A DNA stretch of 64,000 nt from a virus (IMGVR_UViG_3300032007_000057:1-64000); one strand, 5' to 3'; positions 9,275-57,069 are shown, numbered from the stretch's first letter. Made by a program: numbers and translations. Notes: generated from the sequence alone by a model not told the origin.

Positions 9275-10270
9275 CTACCAACCTATATCATTAGGATCAT
9301 CAACTTTAATCCCAAAGATATCACAAAAATTAGAAATACGATCATCAACTGCAAATTCTTGCATTTTATTATAATTAATTCTAAACTTAGTTAAATCTAA
9401 TGTACCATTAGTAGGAATAGTAATACAATCTAACTTACCTTCTTTACCCATTGTACCAGATCGAACTAAATCTGTCAAGCGTCTTTGTGTATCTGAATCA
9501 AATTGACCTATATCAATTTCTTCCAAGTCAAATCTATAGCCTCTATCCATTACTCTAAAGGTACTTCCATAAATTGCATTATATACCAACATAGATTTAA
9601 CTGATCTTGGCAGTCTATCTTGGGCATAGTTTTCTTTATTCCAAGAACTTGGAATAGCACAATAAACTGTACCTGTTTTTAACTGCTCAACATATCTACC
9701 TCTATAATCATCAATCTTAGTGGTAAGCTCTTCTTTACTGATTCCTTTCTTAAGGATATGCTCAATAAAATCATTTAACATATCTCTGCTAAATTGAGGA
9801 TAATCAGATCTTACAACTTCTATACCACTAATACTGATTTTATCCAAAGGCTTTCCTTCTTTGGAAACTAACCAAATAGCATACTTCTTTTTGATTTCCA
9901 GAAACAAAGCTCTTCTAATAACAAGTTCCTGTTTAAAATTAAAGTTAAACTTTTTAGCCGAAGATTCTGTAGGAGATGTATTATGCATATTAAGAAGTTC
10001 ATGAATCATTACATTATTAATATACTGTGCTACAGATTCATTCAATTCAATAACTTTATCTATCTTTTCCTTGTCAGAAATTTCATCATAATCTTTTCCA
10101 TAAATTGCTTTCAATGCATCGCCATATTTAGTAAAAATTGAATCTGTATTATGAACTAATATGTCATTTGCAAAAAAACAATGATCATCATCTGGCATTT
10201 CAATATCATATACATCAATAGGTTCTTCTGGAGTAATCACTTCTATTGATTTAACACTCTCTATCTTCAT
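9275..10270 (-). CDS. DNA polymerase B C-terminal fragment, preceded by a split-intein C-half (IntC, about 41 aa)
   Basis: Starts MKIESVKS...VYDIEMPDDDHCFFANDILVHN|TDSIF. That is intein blocks F/G ending in HN, then the +1 Thr, which is the TDS half of pol motif C (YGD|TDS). A KKKYA (KKRY) motif lies further downstream. Confidence 0.8.
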   Translation of the reverse strand: MKIESVKSIEVITPEEPIDVYDIEMPDDDHCFFANDILVHNTDSIFTKYGDALKAIYGKDYDEISDKEKIDKVIELNESVAQYINNVMIHELLNMHNTSPTESSAKKFNFNFKQELVIRRALFLEIKKKYAIWLVSKEGKPLDKISISGIEVVRSDYPQFSRDMLNDFIEHILKKGISKEELTTKIDDYRGRYVEQLKTGTVYCAIPSSWNKENYAQDRLPRSVKSMLVYNAIYGSTFRVMDRGYRFDLEEIDIGQFDSDTQRRLTDLVRSGTMGKEGKLDCITIPTNGTLDLTKFRINYNKMQEFAVDDRISNFCDIFGIKVDDPNDIGW

Positions 10271-10293
10271 TTTCCTTCACCACCCATATAATG

Positions 10294-10322
10294 ATTCTAT
10301 CAGACTCGGCATACTTTGTCAA
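10294..10322 (-). promoter_or_regulatory. Sigma70-like promoter (TTGACA-17-TAGAAT) for the polymerase C-fragment gene
   Basis: Minus-strand TTGACA, 17 nt, TAGAAT, then SD GGTGAAGGAAAATG. The -35 element abuts the degenerate terminal CRISPR repeat. Confidence 0.55.
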
Positions 10323-10324
10323 TA

Positions 10325-10950
10325 ATTACACAATATTCTTATTTGTAGGTCCTGTATAGTATGGGCAATACAATACTAATCAGGTATCAATTATACGATA
10401 TTCTTATTTGTAAGTCCACATGGTAAAACAATTCCACTACTCCAAAAGCTCATAGTTATACGATACCCTTATTTATAAGTAACGTATAGTGAGTATACCA
10501 GAACTGAAAGAGCACGTCAAGTTATACGATACTCTTTATTTGTAAGTGTCGTATAGTGCTAAAATACTCATGTTTAAAATGTCTGTTATACGATACCCTT
10601 ATTTGTAAGTACCGTATAGTAACATCATTAAATTTCATTTTTACATCACTGTTATACGATACCCTTATTTGTAAGTACCGTATAGTATGTGATGGACCAT
10701 GCAGGAAGAAGATAGCGTTATACGATACCCTTATTTGTAAGTACCGTATAGTGATGATGAGGTAATAGCAGTAATAGTTAGAGTTATACGATACCCTTAT
10801 TTGTAAGTACCGTATAGTCACCCAAATCAGCATACTCTTTAATATCATGTTATACGATACCCTTATTTGTAAGTACCGTATAGTTCTTTTTTATCGTCTG
10901 TTGTATCTTCTTTTGTTATACGATACCCTTATTTGTAAGTACCGTATAGT
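10325..10950 (-). CRISPR. CRISPR array. 36-nt repeat GTTATACGATACCCTTATTTGTAAGTACCGTATAGT (plus-strand reading), 10 units, 27-30-nt spacers. Six perfect units (starts 10585, 10651, 10717, 10783, 10849, 10915). Four progressively degenerate units at the distal end (starts about 10325, 10390, 10455, 10521).
   Basis: Read directly. Units are regularly spaced at 66 nt. All nine spacers between them are unique. Repeat ends are palindromic (TATACG...CGTATA). Degeneration increases away from the cas gene, so the leader is on the cas12 side. Confidence 0.9.
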
Positions 10951-11161
10951 ATCCTATACGCAAACTCTTACAAATACTGAGTTTATTCAATATTCAGTTG
11001 TAAAAAACAGCATTTTCCATACGTAAAAACAAATAAAAAGTATCGTATCCGAATAAATCCGGAGGCAGTTAATTTTCATTAACTTTATTTAAATTCACAT
11101 CGCTGATTCTGATGATCTTATTTAAATGGGTTTGCCAAACTTACCCAAATACATCCCCTGT
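10951..11161 (-). promoter_or_regulatory. CRISPR leader / candidate tracrRNA region
   Basis: AT-rich 210-nt region between the array and the cas12 stop. Contains repeat-like segments in inverted orientation at about 11024-11050 and 10968-10977. See findings. Confidence 0.4.
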
Positions 11162-12646
11162 TTATTTAGGGAATTTAGAATACTTTAGACCTTCAATTAC
11201 GTCTTTAACTCTCATCCTAACTGGATGAAATGGATGGTATCCAACCCAACTAAAATCTGGAATTGCTTTTCTCATAATACCCATAGCGCCATTTACATCA
11301 GCATTCACCAACTTTCCAACCCCAGAAGAAAACAATCCTCTGTGAATTCTTTTACCAAAGTTAGCCTCATCTCTAGTTTCAGGGTCTTCTTTAGTAGCCA
11401 AGGGAGCATTTCTAAGATGATCTGTTTTACTAGTATAAGACTCTTCAACAATCTCGAAGCTTATGCCCCTCATTTTACACTTATATTCGAGTTTGTCAAG
11501 TAGTTTTTTAAAAGGAAAGTTAACAATAATTTGATTATTTTTATGCCCAGTATTGATCTTCTGCTTCATATCTTTATTCCAACCGCAAATAACTCTACAA
11601 ATATTATAATGGAGGCAATATCTAACAATATACTTAGTATATGCATCAACGATATAATTTATACGATTAATATGATTCTTTGTCATTGCTTCAATTCTCT
11701 TAGTAGTATACTGCTTAGGTCTTTTCTTCCCATTTTCATCAGTAATAACTTCAATCTTATGTTTAAGTTTATCTACCATTAAATGATAAAATCTAATTTT
11801 AGATTTCAAAGCATTACCATCAAGGATAACTGGATTAAGTTTATCATCACTAGTAATTATAGTACAAAAATTTCTAATACCCAAATCAATACTAAGATAT
11901 CGTTTATTATCAAGTTTAGGAACCGATTCATTATACGTATAAATTATTTCAATCTTAAAATATCCTTTTTTAGGAATTATCCTAACTTGGTCAATTCTTT
12001 TTCCTTTTACATACTCCGAATTATGTGGCAATTTTTGAAGTGGGATATAAATGCTTTTATTATATCCATCCGTTCCCCTCGGCTTAGGAAACACAAGACT
12101 TCTAGTTTTTGAGTTAATTTTAATAGAAGTACCAGAAAAGTATAATGGGCACAGATCTCCTTTTTTATAAAAACCGGGCTTTCTTGGCATTCCTTTATAT
12201 TTTTCCGGGTGCCTACTCCAATCCCCAAGGGATCTTCCATATGATTTTAAATTTTTAGATAGTAATGTTCTAATTACCTCTGTAGTTGCATCTCTACCTA
12301 CAAGATTTTTAAGTAGTTCCCAATTACTTTTACCCTCAAGATTTTTAGTATAATACTCACCGTTCTCATCTTGTTCACTGGCATATCTCCTCAAACTCAT
12401 TACTTTAAAAAAATCATCGACAGGTTTTTCAAAACCAACGTATTCGTCTGGAAACCAAGGAAAAGACTTACCAGTTTCTTTTTTATATTGTTCTCTAACC
12501 GGGTCATAAGCTTCTTTAAACTCATAAGCATAGTACAGTGTCTGATTATACAAATTCTTAGCAACAGTACATGCTTCTACAAGCCAATCATATACTTCTT
12601 CATTTCCAGGTCTTCTATAAAAGTTAAAACTAGCAGTAAGTTGCAT
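11162..12646 (-). CDS. cas12: Miniature type V CRISPR effector (Cas12f/TnpB-like RuvC nuclease), 494 aa
   Basis: TnpB-type N-terminus (..LYNQTLYYAYE). RuvC-I LSIDLGIRNF, RuvC-II IVEESYTSKTD, RuvC-III NADVNGAMGI. No CxxC...CxxC zinc finger between RuvC-II and RuvC-III. SD GAGGGGG before the ATG. Directly flanked by the CRISPR array. Confidence 0.85.
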   Translation of the reverse strand: MQLTASFNFYRRPGNEEVYDWLVEACTVAKNLYNQTLYYAYEFKEAYDPVREQYKKETGKSFPWFPDEYVGFEKPVDDFFKVMSLRRYASEQDENGEYYTKNLEGKSNWELLKNLVGRDATTEVIRTLLSKNLKSYGRSLGDWSRHPEKYKGMPRKPGFYKKGDLCPLYFSGTSIKINSKTRSLVFPKPRGTDGYNKSIYIPLQKLPHNSEYVKGKRIDQVRIIPKKGYFKIEIIYTYNESVPKLDNKRYLSIDLGIRNFCTIITSDDKLNPVILDGNALKSKIRFYHLMVDKLKHKIEVITDENGKKRPKQYTTKRIEAMTKNHINRINYIVDAYTKYIVRYCLHYNICRVICGWNKDMKQKINTGHKNNQIIVNFPFKKLLDKLEYKCKMRGISFEIVEESYTSKTDHLRNAPLATKEDPETRDEANFGKRIHRGLFSSGVGKLVNADVNGAMGIMRKAIPDFSWVGYHPFHPVRMRVKDVIEGLKYSKFPK

Positions 12647-12708
12647 TGCCTTGGTTTCCCCCTCAATTGTCTTTTGTTATAACATAACTATACTATATAA
12701 AACATTTA

Positions 12709-13818
12709 TCAAGAGGCTTTATTAAAAACCTTATATCCATTACGAGCTGTCTTATCTTCACATAAGATAATAAATTTAGGATAGCTATTACTATTAAAAT
12801 AAGTTGCTCTCTTACAGTGCTTACACGATAAGCACTGAATCATCACTGGTGCCTTTTTCCTTATATGGTAGTCCTGAAATTGTGGGCAAAAATTAACGTT
12901 TGATGTAACAATCGACCTTGGAAATTCGTTTCTAAAAAATGTCCACTGTCTTGTTAGATCTAATCCATTAAAATTTTTATTTTCTAATATATTCTTAAAC
13001 TTCTTTTGTTCCATATATTCTATAATGTCAGTCTCTTTTAAAGCATCTAATCCCTCATCAGTTAGATTGTCATAAAACCTATCTACATACCATTTAACTC
13101 CGTTTGTAACTCGAAAAGCGTATTCATAAGATCTATCACAAACTAGGTCGCTCTCACCACTTCTATGAATCCAATTGCATGGAATACTGCCGCTTAAGTA
13201 TGCCTGTTTTAATTCGTCATATGTAGATTCTCTATTTACTTTAGATAAGTCATACTCTACAACATAAAAATTATTAGTATCTATAGATTTAATTAAATCT
13301 AGTTTTACATCATCTACTCCATGGGTTACTGTTACTTCAAGATACACGCTACATGGAGAGCTATTAAATCCAAACATTTCCTCATAACTAACATCATAGC
13401 ATGTCAAATCGGGTCTAATATATTTCCCATTAGCACAATTTAAATTTTTTTCAAGATAACCCTTATTAAATTTATAAAAATTTGATTCTTTAATCCTAAT
13501 ATATGATGTGCCCATACTAAGCGTATTAGGATTTATAATATTACCATTCCAATCAATATCTAATTCAGGCATCCTACATAGGCCTGTTTCCATAATAATC
13601 TTTTTCATGCCTAAATGTAAATTAGTCTCTCCATGAACATAAACTGAAGCTGGACATTTACTATTCGGTAAATGTGAAAAATGATGACCAACAATATTAC
13701 CTTTTTTAGCTACTAAAGGCTCCCCGCATATAGGGCAGATATAATTATGCAACCCAGACACTACTTCAGAAATATTCTTAATGCTACCGTCTATCAAACA
13801 ATATTCTAACTGAGCCAC
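12709..13818 (-). CDS. CoiA-like nuclease-family protein (N-terminal Cys/His zinc finger)
   Basis: CPICGEPLVAKKGNIVGHHFSHLPNSKC matches the CoiA-family N-terminal C..C...HHFAH..C signature. 369 aa, co-oriented and 62 nt upstream of cas12. Confidence 0.55.
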   Translation of the reverse strand: MAQLEYCLIDGSIKNISEVVSGLHNYICPICGEPLVAKKGNIVGHHFSHLPNSKCPASVYVHGETNLHLGMKKIIMETGLCRMPELDIDWNGNIINPNTLSMGTSYIRIKESNFYKFNKGYLEKNLNCANGKYIRPDLTCYDVSYEEMFGFNSSPCSVYLEVTVTHGVDDVKLDLIKSIDTNNFYVVEYDLSKVNRESTYDELKQAYLSGSIPCNWIHRSGESDLVCDRSYEYAFRVTNGVKWYVDRFYDNLTDEGLDALKETDIIEYMEQKKFKNILENKNFNGLDLTRQWTFFRNEFPRSIVTSNVNFCPQFQDYHIRKKAPVMIQCLSCKHCKRATYFNSNSYPKFIILCEDKTARNGYKVFNKAS

Positions 13819-13870
13819 AGCATATACCCTCTTTTCATTTATAAACTCTAGTTTATAATATATCTAATTA

Positions 13871-14581
13871 TTAAATTTTCTCCTTAGGGCAATCCTTAGT
13901 CCTATGCTTTTCAGTGCATTTTCCAAACCAGCACTTAGGACCACAACCAATAATCAACAAAGGAAACTGATTCTGGAAGATAATATAGATCCTATCAGCC
14001 AATTCTCTAATACCACTTTGAGCTCTCATACACATTCGCAATTCCATAAAGTGCCTAAGCTCTCTTAGATTCATAGTCATAACCAAAGAAGTCTGAGTAG
14101 CATTAGGAAGAATCTCTCTAGCATCTTCTTTAGGAATTCCATCTTCAATATATGCATTATACAAATCAAATGTATCCTTAAGATGCTGTTCAAACAAAGC
14201 CTGTGCATGAGGATTATTTTTAATTGATTCTGGGATAGTAAACTCTTCAGGTCGCATCGTAGTATATCTTTGACTTCTCTGAGAATAAGAAGCAATCCTA
14301 TGACGAACAAGCTGATGGCTAACACTTCTACTAATACCTTCAATAAAAAAGGTAAAATTAGCATGTTCAAGTGGAGATTCATGACCATTTTCCAGAAGCA
14401 TTTTTACCATCTTGTCTTGATACTCTTTATTTAAACACTTCTCTTTCAATTTGTCAAGAGTCAAATCTGAATAACATGTGGCAGCAGCTAAAGTAATTAC
14501 AAATTCAGGATCCTCAGTATTACTAATCAAAGTTACATTCATAATCGTCATCATCCCTTCTGATATCATATTTAAAGTCAT
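13871..14581 (-). CDS. thyX: Flavin-dependent thymidylate synthase ThyX
   Basis: ThyX signature RHRIASYSQRSQRY (RHR-x7-S...R). Start may be an internal Met, because the ORF overlaps the upstream gene by 59 nt. Confidence 0.85.
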   Translation of the reverse strand: MTLNMISEGMMTIMNVTLISNTEDPEFVITLAAATCYSDLTLDKLKEKCLNKEYQDKMVKMLLENGHESPLEHANFTFFIEGISRSVSHQLVRHRIASYSQRSQRYTTMRPEEFTIPESIKNNPHAQALFEQHLKDTFDLYNAYIEDGIPKEDAREILPNATQTSLVMTMNLRELRHFMELRMCMRAQSGIRELADRIYIIFQNQFPLLIIGCGPKCWFGKCTEKHRTKDCPKEKI

Positions 14582-14954
14582 TACCTAGGTAATCACCATA
14601 ACTATCATCAAATTCATCAGTTTCTAGCAAAAACTTATCTGATCTAAAATAAACTTCATCTTTAATGCGTTCTTGTTTATCTTCAATAAAAGAGCACAAA
14701 TATGGGTCATCATCATTAAAATGTCTTACAATTGATTCTAGGATATAATATTGTTTTCTTTGTGAATCATTCATACAATCAATACAAACATCTTCTTCAA
14801 AATCTTTTCCAATATCAGATTCATATAATTTAGTAGCCAGTTCAGCAATACTTTCTACAGTTTTCTTATTAAGATCTGTATGTTTTTGAAGTGCATTATC
14901 ATCAAACTTAGCATATTCATTAAGAACATCTTTTTTAGAAATCATCATTATCAC
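14523..14954 (-). CDS. Hypothetical acidic protein (143 aa)
   Basis: ORF. Confidence 0.45.
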   Translation of the reverse strand: MIMMISKKDVLNEYAKFDDNALQKHTDLNKKTVESIAELATKLYESDIGKDFEEDVCIDCMNDSQRKQYYILESIVRHFNDDDPYLCSFIEDKQERIKDEVYFRSDKFLLETDEFDDSYGDYLGNDFKYDIRRDDDDYECNFD

Positions 14955-15615
14955 CTCTGCTCATTTGTGAAAAAACATCAGCCATCCCATCATCATAATG
15001 ACCTTCCAAAAGGTCAATAGCTCTATCAACAGCTTTTTGATCTTTAATATCTCTACTAACTTCAGTTAATACTGCACAAGCTTTTTGAATTATTTCATCA
15101 TCATATTGATGAGAAGTTATTTCGTGGAAATATTTATTTGATCTACTAACAAATTTAATCAGTGTATTCTCATTAAACTTTTTAGATTTAATTTTAGTAA
15201 CTGGATCAATAAGGCTTTTATAAACTTTAATAAAAAATTCTTTATCAATAGGGCCTTCTACAATAGGTTCTATAGGTTTATTAAAAGTACCATCTTTCTT
15301 TTTCTGCTCAATAATCTGCTCTTCAGTATGATTCTCTAGAATATACTGAATTCTAGCTTCAAGTCTTTTTCTAAGAGTAGGATCTTTAGGAACATTTTCC
15401 TGAATAGCTCTAAGAATACAAATCTCTTTAATTTGCTTAGGTAAGTACTTTTTATCTTCAGGCATATTTGGAAGTGTTTCTGGATTCTGAAGATATTCAT
15501 TTCCTTTAGCAGTCATAGCTCTAATAACTGGTCCTTGGAGTTTAGTAGAGGTTACCTGGGCAATCTGATTAAATTTTCTATAGTGTGACAATACATTACC
15601 TTGTGTTACTTGCAT
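14935..15615 (-). CDS. Hypothetical protein (226 aa)
   Basis: ORF. Confidence 0.45.
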   Translation of the reverse strand: MQVTQGNVLSHYRKFNQIAQVTSTKLQGPVIRAMTAKGNEYLQNPETLPNMPEDKKYLPKQIKEICILRAIQENVPKDPTLRKRLEARIQYILENHTEEQIIEQKKKDGTFNKPIEPIVEGPIDKEFFIKVYKSLIDPVTKIKSKKFNENTLIKFVSRSNKYFHEITSHQYDDEIIQKACAVLTEVSRDIKDQKAVDRAIDLLEGHYDDGMADVFSQMSRGDNDDF

Positions 15616-15941
15616 TCACATTCCCTGCCTTTTAAAATGATAGACATATTGTCATAAGCAGAATCCAGAATTAATCCCAAATCATGTATATATGCAGCTA
15701 TACATTCTTCAAAAGCTTTATAGATACTAACTTCTTTTTTACGTTGATCAGATAATTTAAAAAAATTATCCAGTTCAGTTTGATCAAGATTTTTAGGATT
15801 CTCAAGAAATCTATTAGCATAATCCACAATATCTTGTATCAATTCTTTTGGGAGATGATCTCTAGTAGTTATAGAAGATTCATTATCTGAATCATAATTA
15901 CAATATACCCATTCATCAATAACGTCATCTCTGGTTATCAA
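15606..15941 (-). CDS. Hypothetical protein (111 aa)
   Basis: ORF. Confidence 0.4.
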   Translation of the reverse strand: MITRDDVIDEWVYCNYDSDNESSITTRDHLPKELIQDIVDYANRFLENPKNLDQTELDNFFKLSDQRKKEVSIYKAFEECIAAYIHDLGLILDSAYDNMSIILKGRECECK

Positions 15942-16104
15942 TATAAGTATCTCCTTCTAATATCCTCATTTACCCAATTCTTTCTAAACCAAGTATCATC
16001 ATCTAAATGAACCTTATCATATTCACACAGCTTATTCCAAATAGATTGGATAATCAACAGCTCTTTCTCAGTCTTACATGGCATAAAATCAAATAGTAAT
16101 TGTG

Positions 16105-16485
16105 TCATCGTTCTGTAAGGGGTCGTTCTGTATAAAAGTTAGAAGTATTTTCTGATTTAATAACTCTAACTGCATCATCATAAGTTTTATCTTTAAAGTA
16201 TTTCTTATATTTTTCCATTTTCTGTTCAAGTTCACCAGGTCTAAGTCTAACTTCTTTTTGATTAACAAATACCTTAGGCTTAAGAGTAGCTCTATCAACT
16301 ACAATAATATATGATGGAATTTTATCGCTAGGAAGTTTCTGAATAGCTTCTTTCAAAGCTTCATAATGTGCTTTTACTCCAAATTCAGAATATGGTTTAT
16401 AGATATCCTCAGCAATTCTGCTGTCCATTCCAAAATACATAACATCAAAATGACCTGCACCAGTAACTACTTTTGTTTCAGACAT
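16105..16485 (-). CDS. Hypothetical protein (126 aa)
   Basis: ORF. The 16089..16298 ORF is an alternative frame of the same region. Confidence 0.45.
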   Translation of the reverse strand: MSETKVVTGAGHFDVMYFGMDSRIAEDIYKPYSEFGVKAHYEALKEAIQKLPSDKIPSYIIVVDRATLKPKVFVNQKEVRLRPGELEQKMEKYKKYFKDKTYDDAVRVIKSENTSNFYTERPLTER

Positions 16486-16552
16486 TTAATCATTGCTCCT
16501 TTCAATTTTATATAAGGAGTATATCAGAAAATCAAAGCCATGTCAATATAAA

Positions 16553-16592
16553 AAATCTCTGAGATCAAGAGACCTCAGAGATTTGTTTATTT
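16553..16592 (-). terminator. Rho-independent terminator
   Basis: Minus strand: AAATCTCTGAGgtctcttgatCTCAGAGATTT, an 11-bp stem, then TTTTTATATT. Confidence 0.6.
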
Positions 16593-17191
16593 TCATTAGC
16601 ATCTTCTTTTTTAGTGGTTGCTTTTTTTCTTTTAGCCTTTGTTACAGGAGCTGCTAATGGTTCTGGTGCTGATTTCATTTTCATTGCTAATTCTTCCATA
16701 GTAGGTAATGGCTTTTTAGGCATCTTAGGCTTCTTAGGAGCTTGTCTATCTAAGGCAGCCATTTCAGCTTCCAATTGTTTAACTTGTTCGTCAATACCTA
16801 CTACCTCAGGAAACATTTCTTCACTAGATTTAGTTCTAGAGATTCCCTTTGGAAGTTTTTCTTCTTCTTTTTTAATAGCATCTTTTTGAGATGTCCAGGT
16901 AGGATCGAAAGGATTACTATTCTTAGAAGTAATAGCTCTGACACCAGAAGTAAGTTTTTCTACTGGCTTAGGTGACTCCTCCTCAATACTAAATGATGAG
17001 AAATCTTCTACTGGTTCATCCTTAACACTAAGTGTATTAAAATCTAATGGAGATGTAGTAGTAGCTTCAGCTAAAAACTGTTTAAACCTTTTATTCATCA
17101 GATCAACTTTTTTAGCCAATTTCATCTGATTAGTAGCTATTACTTTCATAAGCTCCATTATATTTTTTGACACTGAGTTCATCAAAATCAC
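16565..17191 (-). CDS. Hypothetical Lys-rich protein (208 aa)
   Basis: ORF. Confidence 0.45.
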   Translation of the reverse strand: MILMNSVSKNIMELMKVIATNQMKLAKKVDLMNKRFKQFLAEATTTSPLDFNTLSVKDEPVEDFSSFSIEEESPKPVEKLTSGVRAITSKNSNPFDPTWTSQKDAIKKEEEKLPKGISRTKSSEEMFPEVVGIDEQVKQLEAEMAALDRQAPKKPKMPKKPLPTMEELAMKMKSAPEPLAAPVTKAKRKKATTKKEDANENKQISEVS

Positions 17192-17523
17192 TCAGCTTTC
17201 TTTTTCTTAGGAGGTCTACCTCTTTTTCTCTTAACTGGAGCAGGAGGAGTAACCTCTTCCTTAACTTCTTCAACAACAGGTTTTTCAACAGGTTTTTCAA
17301 CAGGCTTTTCAGCAGGTTGTTCTTTGACCTCTTCAGTCTTAGTCTGCTTACTAGCAGCCTCTGCTTCAAAATCCTCTTTTGTTTTAATTGGAAACTTGTA
17401 AATATGTCCTTTATCATTAGTTCCAATCAAAACACTATCATTACTAAGCGGAGCTTCAGCCAAACCCATTCTTCTGCAAATTTCCAAAGCTTCAGCTCTG
17501 GTATATTTTTTCAAATTAGCCAA
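17188..17523 (-). CDS. Putative DNA-binding protein with PVEKP repeats and a C-terminal AT-hook (RGRPPKKKK)
   Basis: N-terminal helix-rich motif KKYTRAEALEICRRMGL. Three PVEKPVEKPVEKP repeats. GRP AT-hook core. Confidence 0.45.
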   Translation of the reverse strand: MANLKKYTRAEALEICRRMGLAEAPLSNDSVLIGTNDKGHIYKFPIKTKEDFEAEAASKQTKTEEVKEQPAEKPVEKPVEKPVVEEVKEEVTPPAPVKRKRGRPPKKKKAE

Positions 17524-17553
17524 TTAGATCTTCCTTTCTATTATAGTTTATTT

Positions 17554-18093
17554 TTATAAAGTCCAACTCTTTAAAGTATTGGCAAACCAAACTTCACCAT
17601 TTGGAGTAAACATGTCCACGATATCAACACTATTATTACCAGAAGTACCTGGCTCAATACCATTCATCCAAACAACTGAATCAGGCCAAGTAATCCCTTT
17701 AGAAGGATTCTTAATAATCACTTTGATATGCCTTGCTAAAGTACTTCTGTTATTAGTAATTGATGCATCTGTAGGCACATCCAAAATAGATATTGTAACC
17801 GAACCAGCTAATACTAAATAAAACATATCATAATTGTTAGTATTCAACTGGATAGAACCCATAGCGTTCTCATCTATAGAACACATTCTAAAGCCAGCAA
17901 GTCTATTAATATCTGCTAAGGTAGTAGGTCTGGCATCATTACTAACAGTTAAATTAGCCAATTCATGTGTATGATTTCTAAACTGACTAGCAGACACTTT
18001 CTCATTAAGTTCCTGAGTAATCTTTGTCTCCAATTGATTATGGTATCTCTGTAGGTTTTCAAAAGTTACTAAATTATCACTCATAATAATCAT
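17554..18093 (-). CDS. Hypothetical protein (179 aa)
   Basis: ORF immediately downstream of the polymerase N-fragment. Confidence 0.5.
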   Translation of the reverse strand: MIIMSDNLVTFENLQRYHNQLETKITQELNEKVSASQFRNHTHELANLTVSNDARPTTLADINRLAGFRMCSIDENAMGSIQLNTNNYDMFYLVLAGSVTISILDVPTDASITNNRSTLARHIKVIIKNPSKGITWPDSVVWMNGIEPGTSGNNSVDIVDMFTPNGEVWFANTLKSWTL

Positions 18094-18103
18094 TCTCCTT
18101 TCC

Positions 18104-20683
18104 TTATAAGGTGATTAGTTGGTCTGTTACAACTAATTCTGTTGGTTTAATTATAGTTTTAACATTATTTCTCATTACTACCAAACTATGATCTTCAGTT
18201 ACAGTGACTGTTTTTCCAGATTCAGTAGTAATCTTATACAGTTTCTTATTAGTTTTATGCTTCATCAGATACCTTGGGAAATAAAGTCTGTCATCATATC
18301 CAAGTACGCATTTATTAGGATTCTGAATATAATTTTTTCCGAGATAATGCCACACTTTATTATCCGAAGCACACATATCCCAAAGTTCTTTAATAGTTAT
18401 ATTACCTTTACCAGTTCTGATTAAAGAATCTCCAGTAACTGAATCTCCATAAATTACATTTGGTAGAGCTTGTTCTGATTGGTAATCCCAATCAAAAGGA
18501 ATATCTACATGGTCAAATTTATTAGATTTATTTTGAATCATTTGATTAATGCAATTATTAGCAACTACTGCGGCGATTTTAGCAATTTCTCTACCAGTAG
18601 AAGTAATACTTCTGGCAACCTCATAATCATACAATCTGAATCTAATATTGGACTGACCACCATAAAGAGAATTAGTAATGATCTTAACTGTTTTCTGCAT
18701 AGTATCATATCTGTCAACTAGCATTTGGTCTTTACCAATATTATCCTTCATAAGATCTTTATACTCTTTTCTCTTTTTAATGAGCATATCTACAATATCA
18801 TAAAGAACTGACTGCTTATCTTCATGCTTCTTAAAGATAGTGCCAATCTGGGTAATAATATACCCATTCTTAAGCATTCTTTCATGAAAACTTTTAGCAG
18901 ACAATTTATACAATCTCTCAATACCTTGAACTTTCAAATACAAACTTACATCTGTATTGGAATTAACAAATTCTTCTTTATTAAAGATATATTGTCTAGC
19001 AGTATCTGTATCAACTTTTCCTACATAGGTATCTGCACTAATGTTATATCTTGCCATAATGTATGGATAAAGAGAAGTAAGATCCAAATCACCCAACCAA
19101 TCATGTACACCGCTAATTGGTTCTCTAACATAAGCACCCGCAAACTTTTTCTTCTCAATTCCAGCTTTAACAATTTTGGCTACTTTATCTCTATCCATAA
19201 GATACTCATAAAGAATCCCATCACAAATATGTAGAGTAGTATAAATACTATCCCATGAGATATTAGCCAACTGGACTATACTAAAATTAAGGTCAATATA
19301 CTTCAACTTTTCATCCAATTTTCTTACAAGATGAACGTCGTTAATATTGTATGCAATAAACCTTTCAGGTTCTTCCCTAAAGATTTTATCCATGCCATCT
19401 TCAGTATCAAGTTTAGTAATACCCAACTCAATTTTAGAAATAGTTCCAAGCTTATAATTCTCTTTTTTACCAAGAGTTCTTTCCTTATAGCATCTTTGAT
19501 AATCAAGTGCTACAGAATAACCAATATGAGGAATACAATAAGTAACTTCCTCTTCATGTTTATTCATAACTGTTTTATATTCAATTTCAAAAGTTTTATT
19601 ATGAGCCAGTTTAGGATGTTCAATTCCTAAAAATTCTGCTCTATACTTAATATAAGGTAAATCAAATTCATCACTATTCCACCCAGATACTAGATCTGGA
19701 TCAAATTCTTTCAATAAACTGAAGAACTTAAGGAACATATCACTTTCTTTATCAAAGATTTCTACATTGAAAATACACTCATCTTTGTAATCAAGATATT
19801 CCTTAATTTGTTCAGTATTAATTTTAGCTTTGTTTAAATTATAGACCAAAGTATAATATTTGTCAGTATAATTATCATACAAAGTAATCAAGTTAACGGG
19901 AATAACTCTAGCTGACTTCTTAATATCAGCAAAGTCAATAATACCATATCCTTCTTGATACAACTCAATATCAACATAATTTACTCTAAGTTTATAATGA
20001 CCAAGATTATCTTTGTTTTCTTTTTTCCAAAGATAATTCTTATGAATAGCCAAATTAAAATCTACATTATAAATAGCTTTATAAGAAGATTCTGACTGAA
20101 TTTGTTCAATAATGTATTTTCTTTTACCATAATGTACCAGTTCACCTTTTAATCCTGCAATATCATGAACATCTAAATAATCATCTTTACCGGTATACAT
20201 CATAACCATATCATCAGTCTGAGTAATATATCTTTTATCACCAACTCTAATAACATATGCAAATTCCTTATTCACATAGTCTGAATAGAAGTTAAACAGC
20301 ATAGGCTTAGAATACCCATCAGTTGGCTTAGAATCTTCTTTCTCTTTAGAGCTATACAATTTATATTTACTCTTTTTATTAATAACTACATCAGTTTCTT
20401 TCTTTTTAGGTTTTTCTTCAATTTTGGGAAACACGGGTTTAACAGGAATATAATTAAACTTATAAATAGTGTTATACTTCTTATGTACTTTAGCAATATC
20501 TTCAATAGAATACTTATACGCATAAGGATTATTGAAAAGCTGATTCAATACAATAGATGTTTCAAAATCTTCTTCAGCTAAACTTAAAATAGAGGAAATC
20601 TTAAGAGACTTACATTCCTCTGGAAATGGCACATTTCCTTCAGTAGCTAACCATCTTATATATGTAGTTAGTGGTGAAGCCAT
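18104..20683 (-). CDS. DNA polymerase B N-terminal fragment (exonuclease plus pol motifs A and B) fused to a split-intein N-half (IntN, about 112 aa)
   Basis: Exo I VDIEL, motif A DLTSLYPYIM, motif B KIITNSLYGGQSN, then motif C cut at ...VIYGD|SVTGDSLIRTGKGNITIKELWD (intein block A with Ser1). Intein block B VTEDHSLVV follows. The ORF ends at the intein-half boundary. Confidence 0.85.
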   Translation of the reverse strand: MASPLTTYIRWLATEGNVPFPEECKSLKISSILSLAEEDFETSIVLNQLFNNPYAYKYSIEDIAKVHKKYNTIYKFNYIPVKPVFPKIEEKPKKKETDVVINKKSKYKLYSSKEKEDSKPTDGYSKPMLFNFYSDYVNKEFAYVIRVGDKRYITQTDDMVMMYTGKDDYLDVHDIAGLKGELVHYGKRKYIIEQIQSESSYKAIYNVDFNLAIHKNYLWKKENKDNLGHYKLRVNYVDIELYQEGYGIIDFADIKKSARVIPVNLITLYDNYTDKYYTLVYNLNKAKINTEQIKEYLDYKDECIFNVEIFDKESDMFLKFFSLLKEFDPDLVSGWNSDEFDLPYIKYRAEFLGIEHPKLAHNKTFEIEYKTVMNKHEEEVTYCIPHIGYSVALDYQRCYKERTLGKKENYKLGTISKIELGITKLDTEDGMDKIFREEPERFIAYNINDVHLVRKLDEKLKYIDLNFSIVQLANISWDSIYTTLHICDGILYEYLMDRDKVAKIVKAGIEKKKFAGAYVREPISGVHDWLGDLDLTSLYPYIMARYNISADTYVGKVDTDTARQYIFNKEEFVNSNTDVSLYLKVQGIERLYKLSAKSFHERMLKNGYIITQIGTIFKKHEDKQSVLYDIVDMLIKKRKEYKDLMKDNIGKDQMLVDRYDTMQKTVKIITNSLYGGQSNIRFRLYDYEVARSITSTGREIAKIAAVVANNCINQMIQNKSNKFDHVDIPFDWDYQSEQALPNVIYGDSVTGDSLIRTGKGNITIKELWDMCASDNKVWHYLGKNYIQNPNKCVLGYDDRLYFPRYLMKHKTNKKLYKITTESGKTVTVTEDHSLVVMRNNVKTIIKPTELVVTDQLITL

Positions 20684-20703: not shown

Positions 20704-22086
20704 TTATTTATTACAAAACTTAATCAATTTATCTACATCATCAATACAGTTCAATTGAACTTGCATACACCCATCAATACTATGGTCATTAATTTCACCA
20801 TAATACTTTTGTCGTATCTTTCTCATATCAACTGTTTTTTGATAAGAAGAATTCACAATATCGATAAGCATAACTTTCTTATTAGGTTCTTTATTGTAAA
20901 CTCTTGCAACTCTGCCAATAGCCTGAATAAGACCATTCTTAGCAGTCAATGGAGTAGCAAAAATTAAAGTATTAAGTCTTGGAACATCCATACCTACTTT
21001 GAACATTCCTAAAGTAGCTAGGATACATCTTTTATCATAATCTTTATTTTTAACTGTACCATGGACTATGCTAATCTCTTCAGGATATTTGGAGAATTGT
21101 GCAATGCTATACAATATATTGATTTGGCTTGAAAGAACTAATGGTTCTCTTCCCTGCTCTAAGCATTTATCTACTATAACCGCAATAGACCGCAAGTACT
21201 CTTCTTTTTTAGATAGAAACTTAGCATATTTAGCACTCCAAGCGGAAGCACTACCATACTCTAAATATCTACCATATCCACCCATCTTAATTGGGATATC
21301 TAAAAGACCTGCATAAATTGGAAGTACAAACCATTGCCCATCATCATAAATAGTTTTGCCCATATTCCAAATAAGGATTGGCGCTAAGCTATCCCTTCTA
21401 ATTAGTGTTGCACTCAGACCATACATTCTTTTACTGAATACTGTTTTAGTAGATTCACTAAATTCAGCAGAGGATGCAGTGATATGACATTCATCATAAA
21501 AGGTGACTCCAAAGTTTCCGTCATACATCATGTTGAAGAAGTCTTGGTCATCTCTTTTAACTCTAGACAATAATGTTTGAACTGTAGTAAGATAAATAGG
21601 TTTATCAATTACTTTTGTCTTAGAATTGAGATACCCGATATCTTCTTCTTTAAGATCAGTGTATCTCAATATGGAGTTTTTCCACTGATCCATGAGGCCG
21701 TCTTCTGTAGATACATGAACTACAATAAGAGTACGCTTCTTAATCTTAGTAATACTATTCACAGCCACATAAGTTTTTCCAAATCCGACTCTGGCAGAAA
21801 CTAATCCATGAACATTTTCTACTATAGCATTAATCGCATTCTCTTGTTGCTCATTCAAAGGTTTAAACTCAGGCTTAAGATTAATTTCAATATCCTCACC
21901 ATCAGTACTGAGGTCTTCAACATCTTTGACTTGCTTGAAGTAACGTGGAATCCGATAATATTTTTTACCGGATACTTCAATCTCATCAAAACACTTGATG
22001 TCTCCTTCATCAGTAGCTATAGTGAGTGTATTTTTATCAAACTCAGTCAAGTCTTCTACATACATACGACCTTTAATAAATGCCAT
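20704..22086 (-). CDS. SF2 DExH-box helicase
   Basis: Walker A VGFGKTYVA, DExH box FYDECH, and C-terminal helicase-domain motifs. Confidence 0.6.
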   Translation of the reverse strand: MAFIKGRMYVEDLTEFDKNTLTIATDEGDIKCFDEIEVSGKKYYRIPRYFKQVKDVEDLSTDGEDIEINLKPEFKPLNEQQENAINAIVENVHGLVSARVGFGKTYVAVNSITKIKKRTLIVVHVSTEDGLMDQWKNSILRYTDLKEEDIGYLNSKTKVIDKPIYLTTVQTLLSRVKRDDQDFFNMMYDGNFGVTFYDECHITASSAEFSESTKTVFSKRMYGLSATLIRRDSLAPILIWNMGKTIYDDGQWFVLPIYAGLLDIPIKMGGYGRYLEYGSASAWSAKYAKFLSKKEEYLRSIAVIVDKCLEQGREPLVLSSQINILYSIAQFSKYPEEISIVHGTVKNKDYDKRCILATLGMFKVGMDVPRLNTLIFATPLTAKNGLIQAIGRVARVYNKEPNKKVMLIDIVNSSYQKTVDMRKIRQKYYGEINDHSIDGCMQVQLNCIDDVDKLIKFCNK

Positions 22087-32639: not shown

Positions 32640-32782
32640 TTAAATTATCAAGGGTTCACTTAAGACTCGCACTTAAGATCTTCAGCTTTCACATTTTCCT
32701 AATTATGCTCTAGAAGCATACATAGAAAACACTACTCAGTGAGATTTTGCTATTTAAACTATGAACCATGTCCAACAAAGAT

Positions 32783-56158: not shown

Positions 56159-56695
56159 ATGGCTGGATACTTAGATATTAGTATTAAGTTAGATGAAGAC
56201 TTTGTTGAATGTCTTAAAGGATTAAAGAAAGAATACGGTAATAAATTAACTATACTCAATGGTTTGAGTAATAGCCAATTAAATAATACAGAATTTATAG
56301 ATAACTTTGTTGATAAGAATACCTCCACAGCAGATGCATCTATAGATGGTAATGCTAATGCAAGTACTAAAGATATCTGCTCATTAATGGTAGAAATGAG
56401 AAAACCAGAACTTAAGCTTGAATCATTTAATAAAATATTCTATGAGTTAAAGAAGAAGTATGGTGTTGAAGTAGCTAGAGACTGGTTAAAGAATGAGTGG
56501 GATGGGCACTTTTATAATCATGATGCCTACAGTACTAGCTTTTTGCCTTACTGCTTTGCTTATGATTTAAAAGATCTGGCTGAGAAGGGGTTGTATTTTA
56601 TTAAGGACAACTTTAACCATCAACCACCACAGCATTTAACTACCTTTACAGACTTTGTTGGAGAATTCGTGTCCTATATGAGCAATCGTGGATAA
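56159..56695 (+). CDS. nrdD: Anaerobic ribonucleotide reductase NrdD, exon 1
   Basis: FYNHDAYSTSFLPYCFAYDLKDL...VGEFVSYMSNRG aligns with the T4 NrdD region HVHDIDYSPALPFTNCCLVDLKG...QYGG. The frame stops exactly where the conserved sequence should continue. Confidence 0.65.
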   Translation: MAGYLDISIKLDEDFVECLKGLKKEYGNKLTILNGLSNSQLNNTEFIDNFVDKNTSTADASIDGNANASTKDICSLMVEMRKPELKLESFNKIFYELKKKYGVEVARDWLKNEWDGHFYNHDAYSTSFLPYCFAYDLKDLAEKGLYFIKDNFNHQPPQHLTTFTDFVGEFVSYMSNRG

Positions 56696-57069
56696 AACTG
56701 CGACTTTATAGAGTAATCTATATTGTAATTCAATTGTGAACTGCTGGAAAGGTTAATTAACCTAATCAGCATCTACGTTTAATAATAATTAAACAAGATC
56801 AACGACTATTCCTTTAAAAGGAAGTAAAACTAACTTTCATAAAGTTAAAGTTTGAAGTGCAAGGGCCTAAATATTAGGTTGAAGATATAGTCTTTTAGTT
56901 TTTTAAGCTAAAAAGTTCAGGAGCTTGTGGACTCCCCAATTTCTTAATTTACTCATTTTATTTTTGGAAGAAAGATTGTGAGAATGGGTATTACCCCAAA
57001 AGTCAAGAATATTATAGAGACAATGAGTTCCAACGCATAATTTTTAAACTGAACCAACCGTACCTGAGA
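56696..57069 (+). other. Intervening sequence splitting nrdD (candidate group I intron, about 375 nt, no ORF)
   Basis: Flanking ORFs align to contiguous NrdD sequence (..QYGG|TTFANVD.. versus ..SNRG* / ..SSFTNFTIFD..). Confidence 0.45.

What the first reader, a model, noticed from the sequence alone, without database searches (positions are those of the whole stretch)
9275..20683. DNA polymerase B split into two genes about 7.8 kb apart, joined by a naturally split intein at motif C (YGD|TDS)
ORF 18104..20683 (-) encodes exo and pol motifs A and B and ends ...VIYGD, followed by SVTGDSLIRTGKGNITIKELWD...VTEDHSLVV. Those are intein blocks A and B with Ser1 as nucleophile, and then a stop. ORF 9275..10270 (-) begins with about 41 aa carrying intein blocks F/G (VYDIEMPDDDHCFFANDILVHN), then T+1 DSIF...KKKYA, which is the rest of motif C and the thumb. 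The two halves are separated by about 20 genes, including thyX and the CRISPR-Cas locus. A functional polymerase therefore requires protein trans-splicing. Split inteins in phage replication genes are known from metagenomes, but a split family-B polymerase with a CRISPR-Cas unit inserted between the halves is unusual.
Basis: partly seen in the sequence, partly recalled or inferred. Interest (0 to 1): 0.8.

Follow-up and report, generated by a model that had tools for sequence, protein, structure and literature searches.

The report
Split-intein DNA polymerase in a jumbo phage
A large phage encodes its replicative family-B DNA polymerase as two genes 7.8 kb apart that carry the two halves of a split intein, so the enzyme is most likely stitched together after translation; the feature is real, but this kind of split phage polymerase has already been described and tested biochemically.

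Summary
ORF 18104..20683(-) is a T4 gp43-like PolB (exonuclease, motifs A and B) ending ...VIYGD, followed by a 112-aa intein N-fragment and a TAA stop. ORF 9275..10270(-) starts with a 41-aa intein C-fragment (...ILVHN), followed by TDSIF and the rest of the polymerase. Joining the exteins restores YGDTDS in a 1037-aa product.

Misassembly is excluded. The exact C-half occurs on 17 contigs from independent samples (longest 288 kb). All 26 C-half and 21 N-half relatives (38-100% identity) are split at the same place, with Ser1, the NX-motif His, block B, His-Asn and Thr+1 conserved. Both fragments show dN/dS of about 0.2-0.3.

thyX lay in the gap at all eight loci read across it, and gap length ranges from 1.3 to 7.8 kb. 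In this strain the gap also holds a 494-aa TnpB-derived Cas12-like gene and a 10-repeat CRISPR array whose spacers differ between near-identical strains.

The kind is already known:
- Neq Pol.
- Aes123, CP21 and LCGC14 PolB split inteins.
- PA5oct/MIJ3 and PTm1.

What is new is modest: the Ser1/Thr+1 (YGD|TDS) allele in naturally split form, a multi-gene gap without a recognisable homing endonuclease, and the CRISPR insertion. Splicing itself was not tested.

The parts
18443..20683 (-). PolB N-extein (residues 1-747): N-terminal extension, 3'-5' exonuclease, palm/fingers with motifs A and B, ending ...NVIYGD (first half of motif C)
   Evidence: Pfam DNA_pol_B_exo1 and DNA_pol_B. The joined product aligns to RB69 gp43 residues 102-757. 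Junction read from the sequence.
18107..18442 (-). Intein N-fragment, 112 aa: Ser1 (block A, SVTGDSLIRTG), NX-motif Lys-His (LMKHKT), block B (TVTEDHS); followed by TAA stop at 18104..18106
   Evidence: Pfam Intein_splicing E 3.1e-8. PDB 9hth_A E 1.7e-15. Ser1, NX-motif His and block B Thr invariant in alignment A3. dN/dS 0.18-0.28.
10148..10270 (-). Intein C-fragment, 41 aa, net charge -9: block F (DVYDIEMPDDDHCFFAN), block G (DILVHN)
   Evidence: Pfam Intein_splicing profile 121-155. All 26 clade C-halves end ...(I/L)LVHN|TDS. Charges.
9278..10147 (-). PolB C-extein (290 aa) starting Thr+1-Asp-Ser (rest of motif C), KKKYA motif and thumb; stop at 9275..9277
   Evidence: Pfam DNA_pol_B profile 231-354. 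Translation.
10294..10322 (-). Sigma-70-like promoter (TTGACA-17-TAGAAT with TG) 24 nt upstream of the PolB-C start. It is followed by RBS GGTGAAGGA.
   Evidence: A promoter of the same form sits at the same position in L001 and L002, although the flanking DNA is unrelated. This is a consensus match only.
10325..10950 (-). CRISPR array: 10 repeats of 36 nt (ACTATACGGTACTTACAAATAAGGGTATCGTATAAC), 9 spacers of 29-30 nt, with repeats degenerating toward PolB-C
   Evidence: Spacer content differs between near-identical strains.
10964..11048 (-). Leader region with two anti-repeat-like segments (11029..11048 and 10964..10982), a candidate tracrRNA
   Evidence: Inverted repeats I3 (95% over 20 nt) and I19. 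Not tested further.
11162..12646 (-). 494-aa TnpB-derived Cas12f/V-U-like effector
   Evidence: Pfam OrfB_IS605 and Cas12f1-like_TNB. PADLOC Cas12u3/Cas12f, E 1e-11 to 1e-12. 31-39% identity to ordinary TnpBs. RuvC Asp254/Glu401-402/Asp450 invariant.
12709..13818 (-). 369-aa ORF with a CoiA_N-like zinc-ribbon N-terminus; strain-variable gap cargo of unknown function
   Evidence: Pfam CoiA_N E 9.6e-11 at residues 24-58 only. Replaced by a different ORF in L015.
13871..14581 (-). thyX (flavin-dependent thymidylate synthase), present in the gap at every clade locus examined
   Evidence: Pfam Thy1 E 3.3e-67. Present between the halves in L001, L002, L005, L008, L010, L011 and L015.
14523..15941 (-). 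Three ORFs (143, 226 and 111 aa) of unknown function. The first two are found only in this strain group; the 111-aa ORF had no relative in the loci compared.
15938..18093 (-). Five small ORFs (179, 111, 208, 126 and 56 aa) conserved in the gap of the closer relatives. A terminator-like hairpin and a promoter-like site lie at 16518..16584.
   Evidence: Families F3-F7..

Best explanation
This is a naturally split class-1, cysteine-independent (Ser1/Thr+1) intein. It sits at the YGD|TDS position of motif C of a T4 gp43-like family-B DNA polymerase in a jumbo phage of about 288 kb.

Proposed mechanism, with each step marked as shown or inferred:
1. The two genes are translated separately. The N-half follows the upstream helicase-like gene directly. 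The C-half has its own RBS and probably its own sigma-70-type promoter (inferred from consensus matches).
2. The basic N2 lobe of IntN (+6) and the acidic IntC (-9) associate and fold into a HINT domain (inferred).
3. An N-O acyl shift occurs at Ser1, assisted by the NX-motif His. Transesterification to Thr+1, Asn cyclisation and an O-N shift follow. The result is a 1037-aa polymerase with an intact YGDTDS catalytic motif (inferred from conserved residues and from characterised homologues).

The split is ancestral to a whole phage clade. The gap probably arose at the homing-endonuclease insertion point of a contiguous intein of the type still seen in Salicola phage SCTP-2. It has since kept thyX and acted as a spot where genes come and go. 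In this strain it acquired a TnpB-derived Cas12-like effector with a CRISPR array directly upstream of the C-half.
For: Anatomy and intein blocks.

Homology of the fused intein to solved PolB, gp41-1 and NrdJ-1 inteins.

The spliced sequence restores YGDTDS and aligns through RB69 gp43.

Conservation:
- 26 of 26 C-halves have a 38-43 aa IntC ending HN|TDS (one is a truncated gene call).
- 21 of 21 N-halves end in IntN. The (I/V)(I/V)YGD|S junction is visible in 19; for the other two (P0046, P0047) the printed tail shows only the NX motif and block B.
- Ser1, the NX-motif His, block B Thr, block F VYD and the terminal Asn are invariant in A3.

Selection: dN/dS is 0.18-0.28 for IntN and about 0.28 for IntC.

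Independent assemblies: the exact C-half is on 17 contigs from Logan, JGI and ENA samples. The same gene order appears in L016 and L017, and both halves lie on a 288,112-bp contig.

Other support:
- Charge complementarity between the fragments.
- A promoter conserved in position before PolB-C.
- No intron-like RNA in the gap.
- No second polB copy in the window.
- Homologous PolB split inteins splice in vitro (PMC12707363, PMC11923092, PMC10189870).
- SCTP-2 has a contiguous mini-intein at the identical YGD|TDS site.
Against: - Splicing was not demonstrated for this intein.
- Thr+1 inteins can be slow, and some characterised natural PolB split inteins splice poorly. Aes123 reaches about 30% (PMC11923092).
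- A single-sequence AlphaFold model of the fused intein was uninformative (pLDDT 43).
- Two clade members (P0050, P0051) lack the block B His. That His is dispensable in the PolB16 intein (PMC10189870).
- The promoter is only a consensus match, in a region where such matches are not enriched.
- Only 64 kb of the roughly 288-kb genome was inspected for a second polymerase.
Confidence: 0.85

Rival explanations
1. The two polymerase pieces assemble non-covalently. The intein fragments serve only as a dimerisation module and no splicing occurs, as in the intein-less split gp43 of Aeromonas phages or the Aeh1 NrdA fragments.
For: Intein-less split gp43 and split NrdA work as non-covalent complexes (PMC2677866; PMC3045599, listed). 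Some natural PolB split inteins splice inefficiently in vitro (PMC11923092). The split lies inside catalytic motif C, but the HINT fold would hold the two ends together.
Against: All residues needed only for chemistry, not for binding, are invariant or nearly so over 38-100% identity: Ser1, NX-motif His, block B Thr/His, penultimate His, terminal Asn and Thr+1. An unspliced 153-aa HINT domain lodged inside YGD/TDS would sit in the active site between the two catalytic aspartates.
Confidence: 0.08
2. The arrangement is an assembly artefact, or a rearranged or defective variant. The true genome has a contiguous polB, with or without a contiguous intein.
For: The window is a metagenomic assembly, and a repeat-rich CRISPR array abuts the C-half.
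Against: The same split, with different gap contents, appears in at least 9 independent loci and 17 contigs carrying the identical C-half, from different samples and assemblers. Each half has its own stop or start codon and RBS. No contiguous relative appears among 47 clade proteins.
Confidence: 0.01
3. The halves are joined at the nucleic-acid level, by intron-like trans-splicing, by programmed excision of the gap, or by ribosomal bypass, rather than at the protein level.
For: The same window has a group I intron in nrdD, so RNA-level mobile elements are present in this genome.
Against: No intron family matches the gap even at E 0.1. No long direct repeats flank the gap. The gap is 1.3-7.8 kb of ordinary genes on the same strand. 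The junction residues are precisely those of an intein.
Confidence: 0.01
4. The split polymerase is a decaying pseudogene pair, and replication relies on another polymerase encoded elsewhere in the roughly 288-kb genome or by the host.
For: Only 64 kb of the genome was visible.
Against: Exteins are under strong purifying selection (dN/dS 0.09-0.18). Both ORFs are intact in all relatives. They are embedded in a replication module with helicase, SSB, DnaB, clamp loader and RecA-like genes.
Confidence: 0.03

Closest known systems
Aes123 PolB1, CP21 PolB1, LCGC14 PolB2 and GOM-OPS-1 PolB2 natural split inteins of T4-like phage PolB (Mootz and Pietrokovski labs; PMC12707363, PMC11923092)
   Same: Typically split (IntN 115-120 aa, IntC 39-46 aa), Ser1, cysteine-independent, with the NX-motif His. 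They lie in motif C of a gp43-like PolB and are clearly homologous in sequence (the CP21 intein is aligned in A3). Trans-splicing has been shown in vitro.
   Different: Those use Ser+1. The relatives whose junction I read here (CP21, PTm1, PA5oct) are inserted two codons later (YGDTD|S); I infer the same site for the others from their Ser+1. The window intein uses Thr+1 at YGD|TDS. It is not strictly cysteine-free, with 3 non-catalytic Cys. It has not been tested.
Pseudomonas jumbo phages MIJ3/PA5oct, Tenacibaculum jumbo phage PTm1 and Campylobacter phage CP21: genomic 'fractured' polB
   Same: The PolB of large phages (183-288 kb; jumbo for MIJ3/PA5oct and PTm1) is encoded as two genes carrying split-intein halves at motif C (PMC6892783).
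   Different: There the halves are separated by a single gene. It is an annotated homing endonuclease in MIJ3/PA5oct (HNH/Hef-like) and PTm1 (VSR), and a 333-aa hypothetical ORF in CP21. Here the gap is 1.3-7.8 kb, thyX was present at every locus examined, no recognisable homing endonuclease is present in the window, and this strain carries a CRISPR-Cas unit.
Neq Pol split intein of Nanoarchaeum equitans PolB
   Same: A naturally split, cysteine-less intein in a family-B polymerase, with the halves encoded at separate loci and no intervening endonuclease (PMC2677866, PMC10189870).
   Different: It is archaeal and thermophilic, and the halves are far apart in the genome. Whether its insertion site is identical (the archaeal pol-c site, Ser1/Thr+1) rests on my recollection and was not verified here.
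Salicola phage SCTP-2 PolB mini-intein
   Same: Same insertion point (IIYGD|S...N|TDS), same Ser1/Thr+1 pair, a homologous sequence, and a jumbo phage host (A3).
   Different: It is contiguous (163 aa, cis-splicing) and has Lys-Asn instead of His-Asn at its C-terminus.
Intein-less split gp43 of Aeromonas phages (Aeh1, 25) and 'fractured genes' (Dassa et al. 2009)
   Same: An essential phage replication gene broken in two, with mobile DNA in between. The Dassa model predicts later loss of the endonuclease and uncoupling of the halves (PMC2677866).
   Different: Split gp43 in Aeh1 and phage 25 has no intein. Fractured genes are defined by a free-standing homing endonuclease in the gap, which was not found here.
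Cyanobacterial DnaE split intein
   Same: A replicative polymerase that depends on trans-splicing. The split is fixed across a whole clade after a single ancestral event.
   Different: It is a family-C polymerase with Cys1/Cys+1, in a cellular genome, with the halves hundreds of kb apart.

Membership tests
Class-1 intein (HINT domain), cysteine-independent Ser1 subgroup | Nucleophile at intein position 1 (block A) | tested here: met
   Ser748 of the N-half follows YGD. Ser1 is invariant in the 20 aligned inteins and visible in 19 of 21 N-halves.
Class-1 intein (HINT domain), cysteine-independent Ser1 subgroup | Block B (N3) Thr-x-x-His | tested here: met
   T-E-D-H in the window. Thr is invariant and His is present in at least 90%. 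P0050 and P0051 have TEDE.
Class-1 intein (HINT domain), cysteine-independent Ser1 subgroup | NX motif: His preceded by Lys or Arg, specific to Ser1 inteins (PMC10189870) | tested here: met
   LMKHKT in the window. The His is invariant and is preceded by K or R in all 20 sequences.
Class-1 intein (HINT domain), cysteine-independent Ser1 subgroup | Blocks F and G with C-terminal His-Asn, followed by a Cys/Ser/Thr +1 nucleophile | tested here: met
   DVYDIEMPDDDHCFFANDILVHN|T. HN|TDS is present in 26 of 26 clade C-halves.
Class-1 intein (HINT domain), cysteine-independent Ser1 subgroup | HINT fold of the assembled fragments | tested here: inconclusive
   Sequence homology to solved inteins is strong (9hth_A, E 1.7e-15).
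Naturally split intein (typical split) | Two separate ORFs, each with its own stop or start. The break lies at the endonuclease-insertion position, giving IntN of about 100-120 aa and IntC of about 35-45 aa. | tested here: met
   IntN is 112 aa and ends in TAA. IntC is 41 aa and starts at an ATG with an RBS. The same holds in all relatives.
Naturally split intein (typical split) | Extein ligation restores a conserved host motif | tested here: met
   VIYGD + TDSIF gives YGDTDS. The product aligns to RB69 gp43.
Naturally split intein (typical split) | Protein trans-splicing activity | not testable with these tools
   This needs co-expression or in vitro mixing. Homologous inteins are active (PMC12707363).
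'Fractured gene' arrangement (Dassa et al. 2009) | A free-standing homing endonuclease gene between the split-intein halves | tested here: not met
   No HNH, GIY-YIG, LAGLIDADG or Vsr/EDxHD domain was found in any window gap ORF (Pfam, PHROGs and PADLOC). The CoiA_N-like ORF is unassigned. An RRXRR+HNH (IscB-like) gene is present only in strain L015.
T4 gp43-like family-B DNA polymerase | Exonuclease domain plus polymerase motifs A (DxxSLYPS), B (KxxxNSxYG) and C (YGDTDS) | tested here: met
   DLDLTSLYPY, KIITNSLYGG and the reconstituted YGDTDS. Pfam. Best PDB hit is RB69 gp43, E 6.9e-37.
Type V CRISPR-Cas (Cas12f / V-U-like) | A TnpB-like RuvC + TNB effector adjacent to a CRISPR array, with the RuvC triad intact | tested here: met
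   Pfam and PADLOC hits. The array has 10 repeats. Asp254/Glu401-402/Asp450 are invariant with TnpBs.
Type V CRISPR-Cas (Cas12f / V-U-like) | Adaptation module (cas1/cas2) and RNA-guided interference | tested here: not met
   No cas1 or cas2 in the gap. The rest of the window was scanned only in part, and none was seen. Spacers do turn over between strains. Interference cannot be tested here, and no protospacer was found in IMG/VR for 2 spacers.

The most novel reading that the evidence does not exclude
The interval between the two split-intein halves is not just debris left by a lost homing endonuclease. It may be a maintained 'cargo bay'. In this reading the essential, co-dependent polymerase halves act as anchors that keep whatever lies between them from being lost (thyX was there at every locus examined). 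The site has become a preferred landing pad for RNA-guided nuclease elements: a TnpB-derived CRISPR effector here, and an IscB-like gene in a sister strain. The separately promoted C-half would give the phage a post-translational timing switch for replication. A by-product would be a set of more than 25 natural mesophilic Ser1/Thr+1 typically split inteins, an allele not among the characterised cysteine-independent split inteins.
Probability: 0.2. Interest if true: 0.55.

Novelty: new member of a known kind. Interest (0 to 1): 0.35.

Why it matters
The locus adds a well-populated natural clade to the known split-intein PolBs of T4-like and jumbo phages: at least 26 C-half and 21 N-half sequence clusters, spanning 38-100% identity.

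Three points are worth keeping:
1. It is the naturally split form of the YGD|TDS (Ser1/Thr+1) allele. The characterised mesophilic cysteine-independent split inteins (Aes123/CL, PolB16, LCGC14, CP21, GOM-OPS-1) are all Ser+1. This clade is therefore a ready source of possibly orthogonal candidates for protein engineering.
2. It documents a later stage of the Dassa gene-breaking model. The endonuclease is gone, the halves have drifted 1.3-7.8 kb apart, and the gap keeps gaining and losing genes between strains.
3. It shows a compact TnpB-derived CRISPR effector, with a turning-over array, inside a phage replication module.

None of this changes how split inteins are understood.

Tried and rejected
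- **Misassembly or inversion:** rejected by 17 contigs with the identical C-half and by the conserved split in all relatives.
- **Stop-codon recoding:** ARAGORN called a CTA-anticodon tRNA, which could have merged ORFs. The N-half stop is TAA, and reading through TAG or TGA does not create longer coherent genes. Rfam does not confirm that tRNA at its gathering score.
- **Intron or RNA-level joining:** no Rfam match in the gap at E 0.1.
- **Homing endonuclease in the gap:** Pfam, PHROGs, PADLOC and PDB searches of all gap ORFs found none.
- **Second polB or second intein copy in the window:** none found by tblastn.
- **Protospacers:** no self-matches in the window or fetched loci (up to 5 mismatches allowed), and no exact IMG/VR matches for two spacer cores.
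- **Filing as a 'fractured gene':** considered and not adopted, because the defining endonuclease is missing.

Full report
**1. Observation**

ORF 18104..20683(-) encodes 859 aa. Pfam finds the family-B exonuclease domain (E 4.7e-16), the polymerase domain up to profile position 232 of 453 (E 2.1e-26), and the first 93 positions of the intein splicing domain at residues 760-857 (E 3.1e-8). The protein ends ...NVIYGD|SVTGDSLIRTGKGN...YLMKHKT...TVTEDHSLVV...DQLITL, followed by TAA and then the RBS and start of the next gene.

ORF 9275..10270(-) encodes 331 aa. It begins MKIESVKSIEVITPEEPIDVYDIEMPDDDHCFFANDILVHN|TDSIFTKYG. Pfam matches intein profile positions 121-155 at residues 4-41, and polymerase profile positions 231-354 further on. 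An RBS (GGTGAAGGA) precedes the ATG.

Boundaries read from the DNA:
- N-extein 18443..20683
- IntN 18107..18442 (112 aa)
- IntC 10148..10270 (41 aa)
- C-extein 9278..10147

The fused 153-aa intein matches a solved PolB intein (PDB 9hth_A, E 1.7e-15). It also matches gp41-1, PolB16, NrdJ-1 and several archaeal inteins. Joining the exteins gives a 1037-aa protein with VIYGDTDSIF. That product aligns to RB69 gp43 residues 102-757 (E 6.9e-37).

Two details of the finding need correction. The gap holds 11 plausible genes plus a CRISPR array, not about 20 genes, and ORF 10522..10848 is an artefact inside the array. The product is 1037 aa, not about 1080 aa.

**2. Is the arrangement real?**

The exact C-half protein is recorded on 17 contigs from independent samples and assemblers: Logan SRR7971122 and SRR7971121, and JGI 3300039431 and 3300037696. 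Three of these contigs fall in the 0.2-1 Mb class. Both halves are recorded on a contig of 288,112 bp, which is why I call this a jumbo phage.

L016 and L017 reproduce the full order: PolB-N, small ORFs, thyX, CoiA_N-like ORF, Cas12-like gene, array, PolB-C. Two IMG/VR relatives keep the split with gaps of 4.1 and 4.4 kb: L001 (78-81% identity) and L002 (69-70% identity, on a 275-kb contig).

More distant relatives found through the protein searches also keep it:
- L008, 3.7 kb
- L010, 2.5 kb
- L011, 5.0 kb
- L005, 1.3 kb

All 26 C-half clusters (39-99% identity) are 308-347 aa. All 21 N-half clusters (38-100% identity) end in an intein N-fragment. No contiguous version appears in the clade. 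Misassembly is excluded.

**3. Is the intein likely to be active?**

Twenty fused inteins were aligned: the clade plus PTm1, CP21 and SCTP-2. Invariant residues are Ser1, the His of the NX motif (always preceded by Lys or Arg), the block B Thr, the block F Val-Tyr-Asp and the terminal Asn. The block B His, the penultimate His and Thr+1 are present in at least 90%.

The NX-motif His is the signature of Ser1, cysteine-independent inteins (PMC10189870). The same paper shows that the block B His can be dispensable. That fits the two clade members with TEDE.

A Nei-Gojobori estimate gives dN/dS of 0.18-0.28 for IntN and about 0.28 for IntC. The exteins give 0.09-0.18. Synonymous sites are close to saturation, so these numbers are rough. 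Still, both fragments are clearly constrained.

IntC carries net charge -9, and the C-terminal lobe of IntN carries +6. This is the kind of complementarity described for the capture step of split inteins (PMC12707363).

Splicing itself is inferred and not shown.

**4. Expression**

The N-half starts 20 nt after the upstream helicase-like gene (20704..22086) and is followed 10 nt later by the next ORF. It is therefore probably part of a longer transcript.

A terminator-like hairpin and a strong promoter-like site lie at 16518..16584. Directly before the C-half is TTGACA-17-TAGAAT with an upstream TG (10294..10322). A promoter of the same form sits at the same distance from the start in L001 and L002, although the DNA upstream is unrelated in those phages. 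These are consensus matches only.

**5. The gap**

thyX lies between the halves at all eight loci I could read across: the window, L001, L002, L005, L008, L010, L011 and L015. In L007 it lies just upstream of the C-half. In the closer relatives, three to five small ORFs of unknown function are also conserved.

The stretch immediately upstream of the C-half is variable:
- L001 has a 269-aa ORF.
- L002 has five small opposite-strand ORFs.
- The window has a CoiA_N-like ORF, a Cas12-like gene and an array.
- L015, whose C-half is 99% identical, has a different ORF in place of the CoiA_N-like one, and an RRXRR+HNH (IscB-like) gene further upstream.

No homing endonuclease domain was found in any window gap ORF. 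No intron-like RNA was found in the gap.

**6. The CRISPR-Cas unit**

The array has 10 repeats of 36 nt and 9 spacers of 29-30 nt. The repeats degenerate toward PolB-C. Two anti-repeat-like segments lie between the effector gene and the array.

The 494-aa effector carries OrfB_IS605 and Cas12f1-like TNB domains. It matches Cas12u3 and Cas12f models weakly. It is 31-39% identical over most of its length to ordinary TnpBs of about 410 aa, and only five clusters are close relatives. The RuvC acidic residues are conserved.

Array content varies between strains:
- The window, L017 and L019 share the same array.
- L016 lacks the five leader-proximal spacers.
- L015 has entirely different spacers.

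So the array turns over between near-identical strains. Two spacer cores gave no exact match in IMG/VR.

**7. Comparison with what is known**

Split family-B polymerases joined by split inteins are established:
- Neq Pol in Nanoarchaeum (PMC2677866, PMC10189870).
[quoted passage not shown] Its relative PA5oct has the same layout with a Hef-like endonuclease.
- Tenacibaculum jumbo phage PTm1, whose GenBank record already reads 'intein-containing split DNA polymerase precursor', 'VSR endonuclease', 'DNA polymerase'.
- Campylobacter phage CP21.
- The Aes123 PolB1, CP21 PolB1, LCGC14 PolB2, GOM-OPS-1 PolB2 and PolB16 inteins, which have been expressed and spliced in vitro (PMC12707363, PMC11923092, PMC10189870).

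My exhaustive search of 1.84 billion cluster representatives points the same way. By a rough motif-based sorting of the 150 best hits, about 18 are typically split C-halves, about 12 have a long IntC, and about 9 carry contiguous inteins at this motif.

Three things differ here:
- The relatives whose junction I read (PTm1, CP21, PA5oct) and the outgroup C-halves P0027-P0030 are inserted after YGDTD or have Ser+1. The published Aes123, CP21, LCGC14, GOM-OPS-1 and PolB16 inteins also have Ser+1 (PMC12707363, PMC10189870). The window clade is inserted two codons earlier (YGD|TDS) and has Thr+1. Salicola phage SCTP-2 has a contiguous mini-intein at exactly this earlier site, so the clade looks like the split form of that allele.
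- The gap is multi-genic and lacks an endonuclease. This corresponds to the late, 'uncoupled' stage of the gene-breaking model of Dassa et al..
- A CRISPR-Cas unit sits in the gap in this strain.

**8. Verdict**

The finding is real and correctly interpreted. It is a new member of a known kind rather than something unexpected. I put the probability that the polymerase is made by protein trans-splicing at 0.85. The main rival is non-covalent assembly without splicing, at about 0.08. Interest is 0.35. The value lies in a new natural Ser1/Thr+1 split-intein clade and in a tidy evolutionary series of gap expansion.

Noticed in passing
window 56159..58323 (+), intron at about 56680..56915: nrdD (anaerobic ribonucleotide reductase) is interrupted. 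ORF 56159..56695 matches NRDD profile positions 14-100, and ORF 57070..58323 matches positions 155-560. A group I intron match lies between them (Rfam RF00028, 47.3 bits against a gathering score of 50, E 8e-11 in an 801-nt search). A second essential gene in the window is therefore broken by a mobile element, this time at the RNA level.
   Followed up: partly
window 10325..12646 (-): The CRISPR-associated effector looks like a recent TnpB derivative. It is 494 aa and 31-39% identical across nearly its full length to ordinary IS605 OrfB/TnpB proteins of about 410 aa. Only five close clusters exist. The RuvC triad is conserved, and candidate tracrRNA anti-repeats lie at 11029..11048 and 10964..10982. 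No cas1 or cas2 lies nearby.
   Followed up: partly
L015 8328..8878, L016 9651..9946, L017 9321..9946, window 10325..10950: Phage strains with 99-100% identical PolB-C carry different CRISPR arrays. L016 lacks the five leader-proximal spacers and L015 has a completely different spacer set. This implies spacer gain or loss on a short time scale even though no adaptation genes were seen.
   Followed up: partly
L015 1708..2961: In a near-identical strain, a 417-aa RRXRR+HNH protein (IscB-like architecture) is inserted inside the PolB gap. The gap has therefore received both TnpB-type and IscB-type RNA-guided nuclease genes.
   Followed up: no
window 32652..32745 (-): ARAGORN calls a 94-nt tRNA with a CTA (amber-reading) anticodon. 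Rfam does not report it at its gathering score. TAG is a rare stop (4 of 54 long ORFs), but reading through TAG or TGA does not merge genes, so recoding is not evident.
   Followed up: partly
L007 2894..5870: In a relative with 44% identity, thyX itself contains an intein (Thy1-Intein-Thy1, 528 aa). No PolB N-half lies within the 5 kb upstream of the C-half, so the halves may be fully uncoupled there.
   Followed up: no
protein cluster of P0051 (relative of the N-half): One member of this phage PolB cluster is deposited at NCBI as 'MAG: family B DNA polymerase, partial [Candidatus Dojkabacteria bacterium]' on a 3-kb contig. This is either mis-binned phage DNA or a hint about the host.
   Followed up: no
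window 9275..20683 compared with PTm1 (L003), CP21 (L004), PA5oct (L012) and SCTP-2 (L013): Homologous inteins occupy two insertion points only two codons apart in motif C: YGD|TDS with Thr+1, and YGDTD|S with Ser+1. How a related intein comes to sit at both positions is unexplained.
   Followed up: partly
L005 983..4312 and proteins P0045, P0049, P0052: In the deeper branch of the clade, the PolB N-half carries an N-terminal uracil-DNA glycosylase (UDG) domain fused to the polymerase.
   Followed up: no
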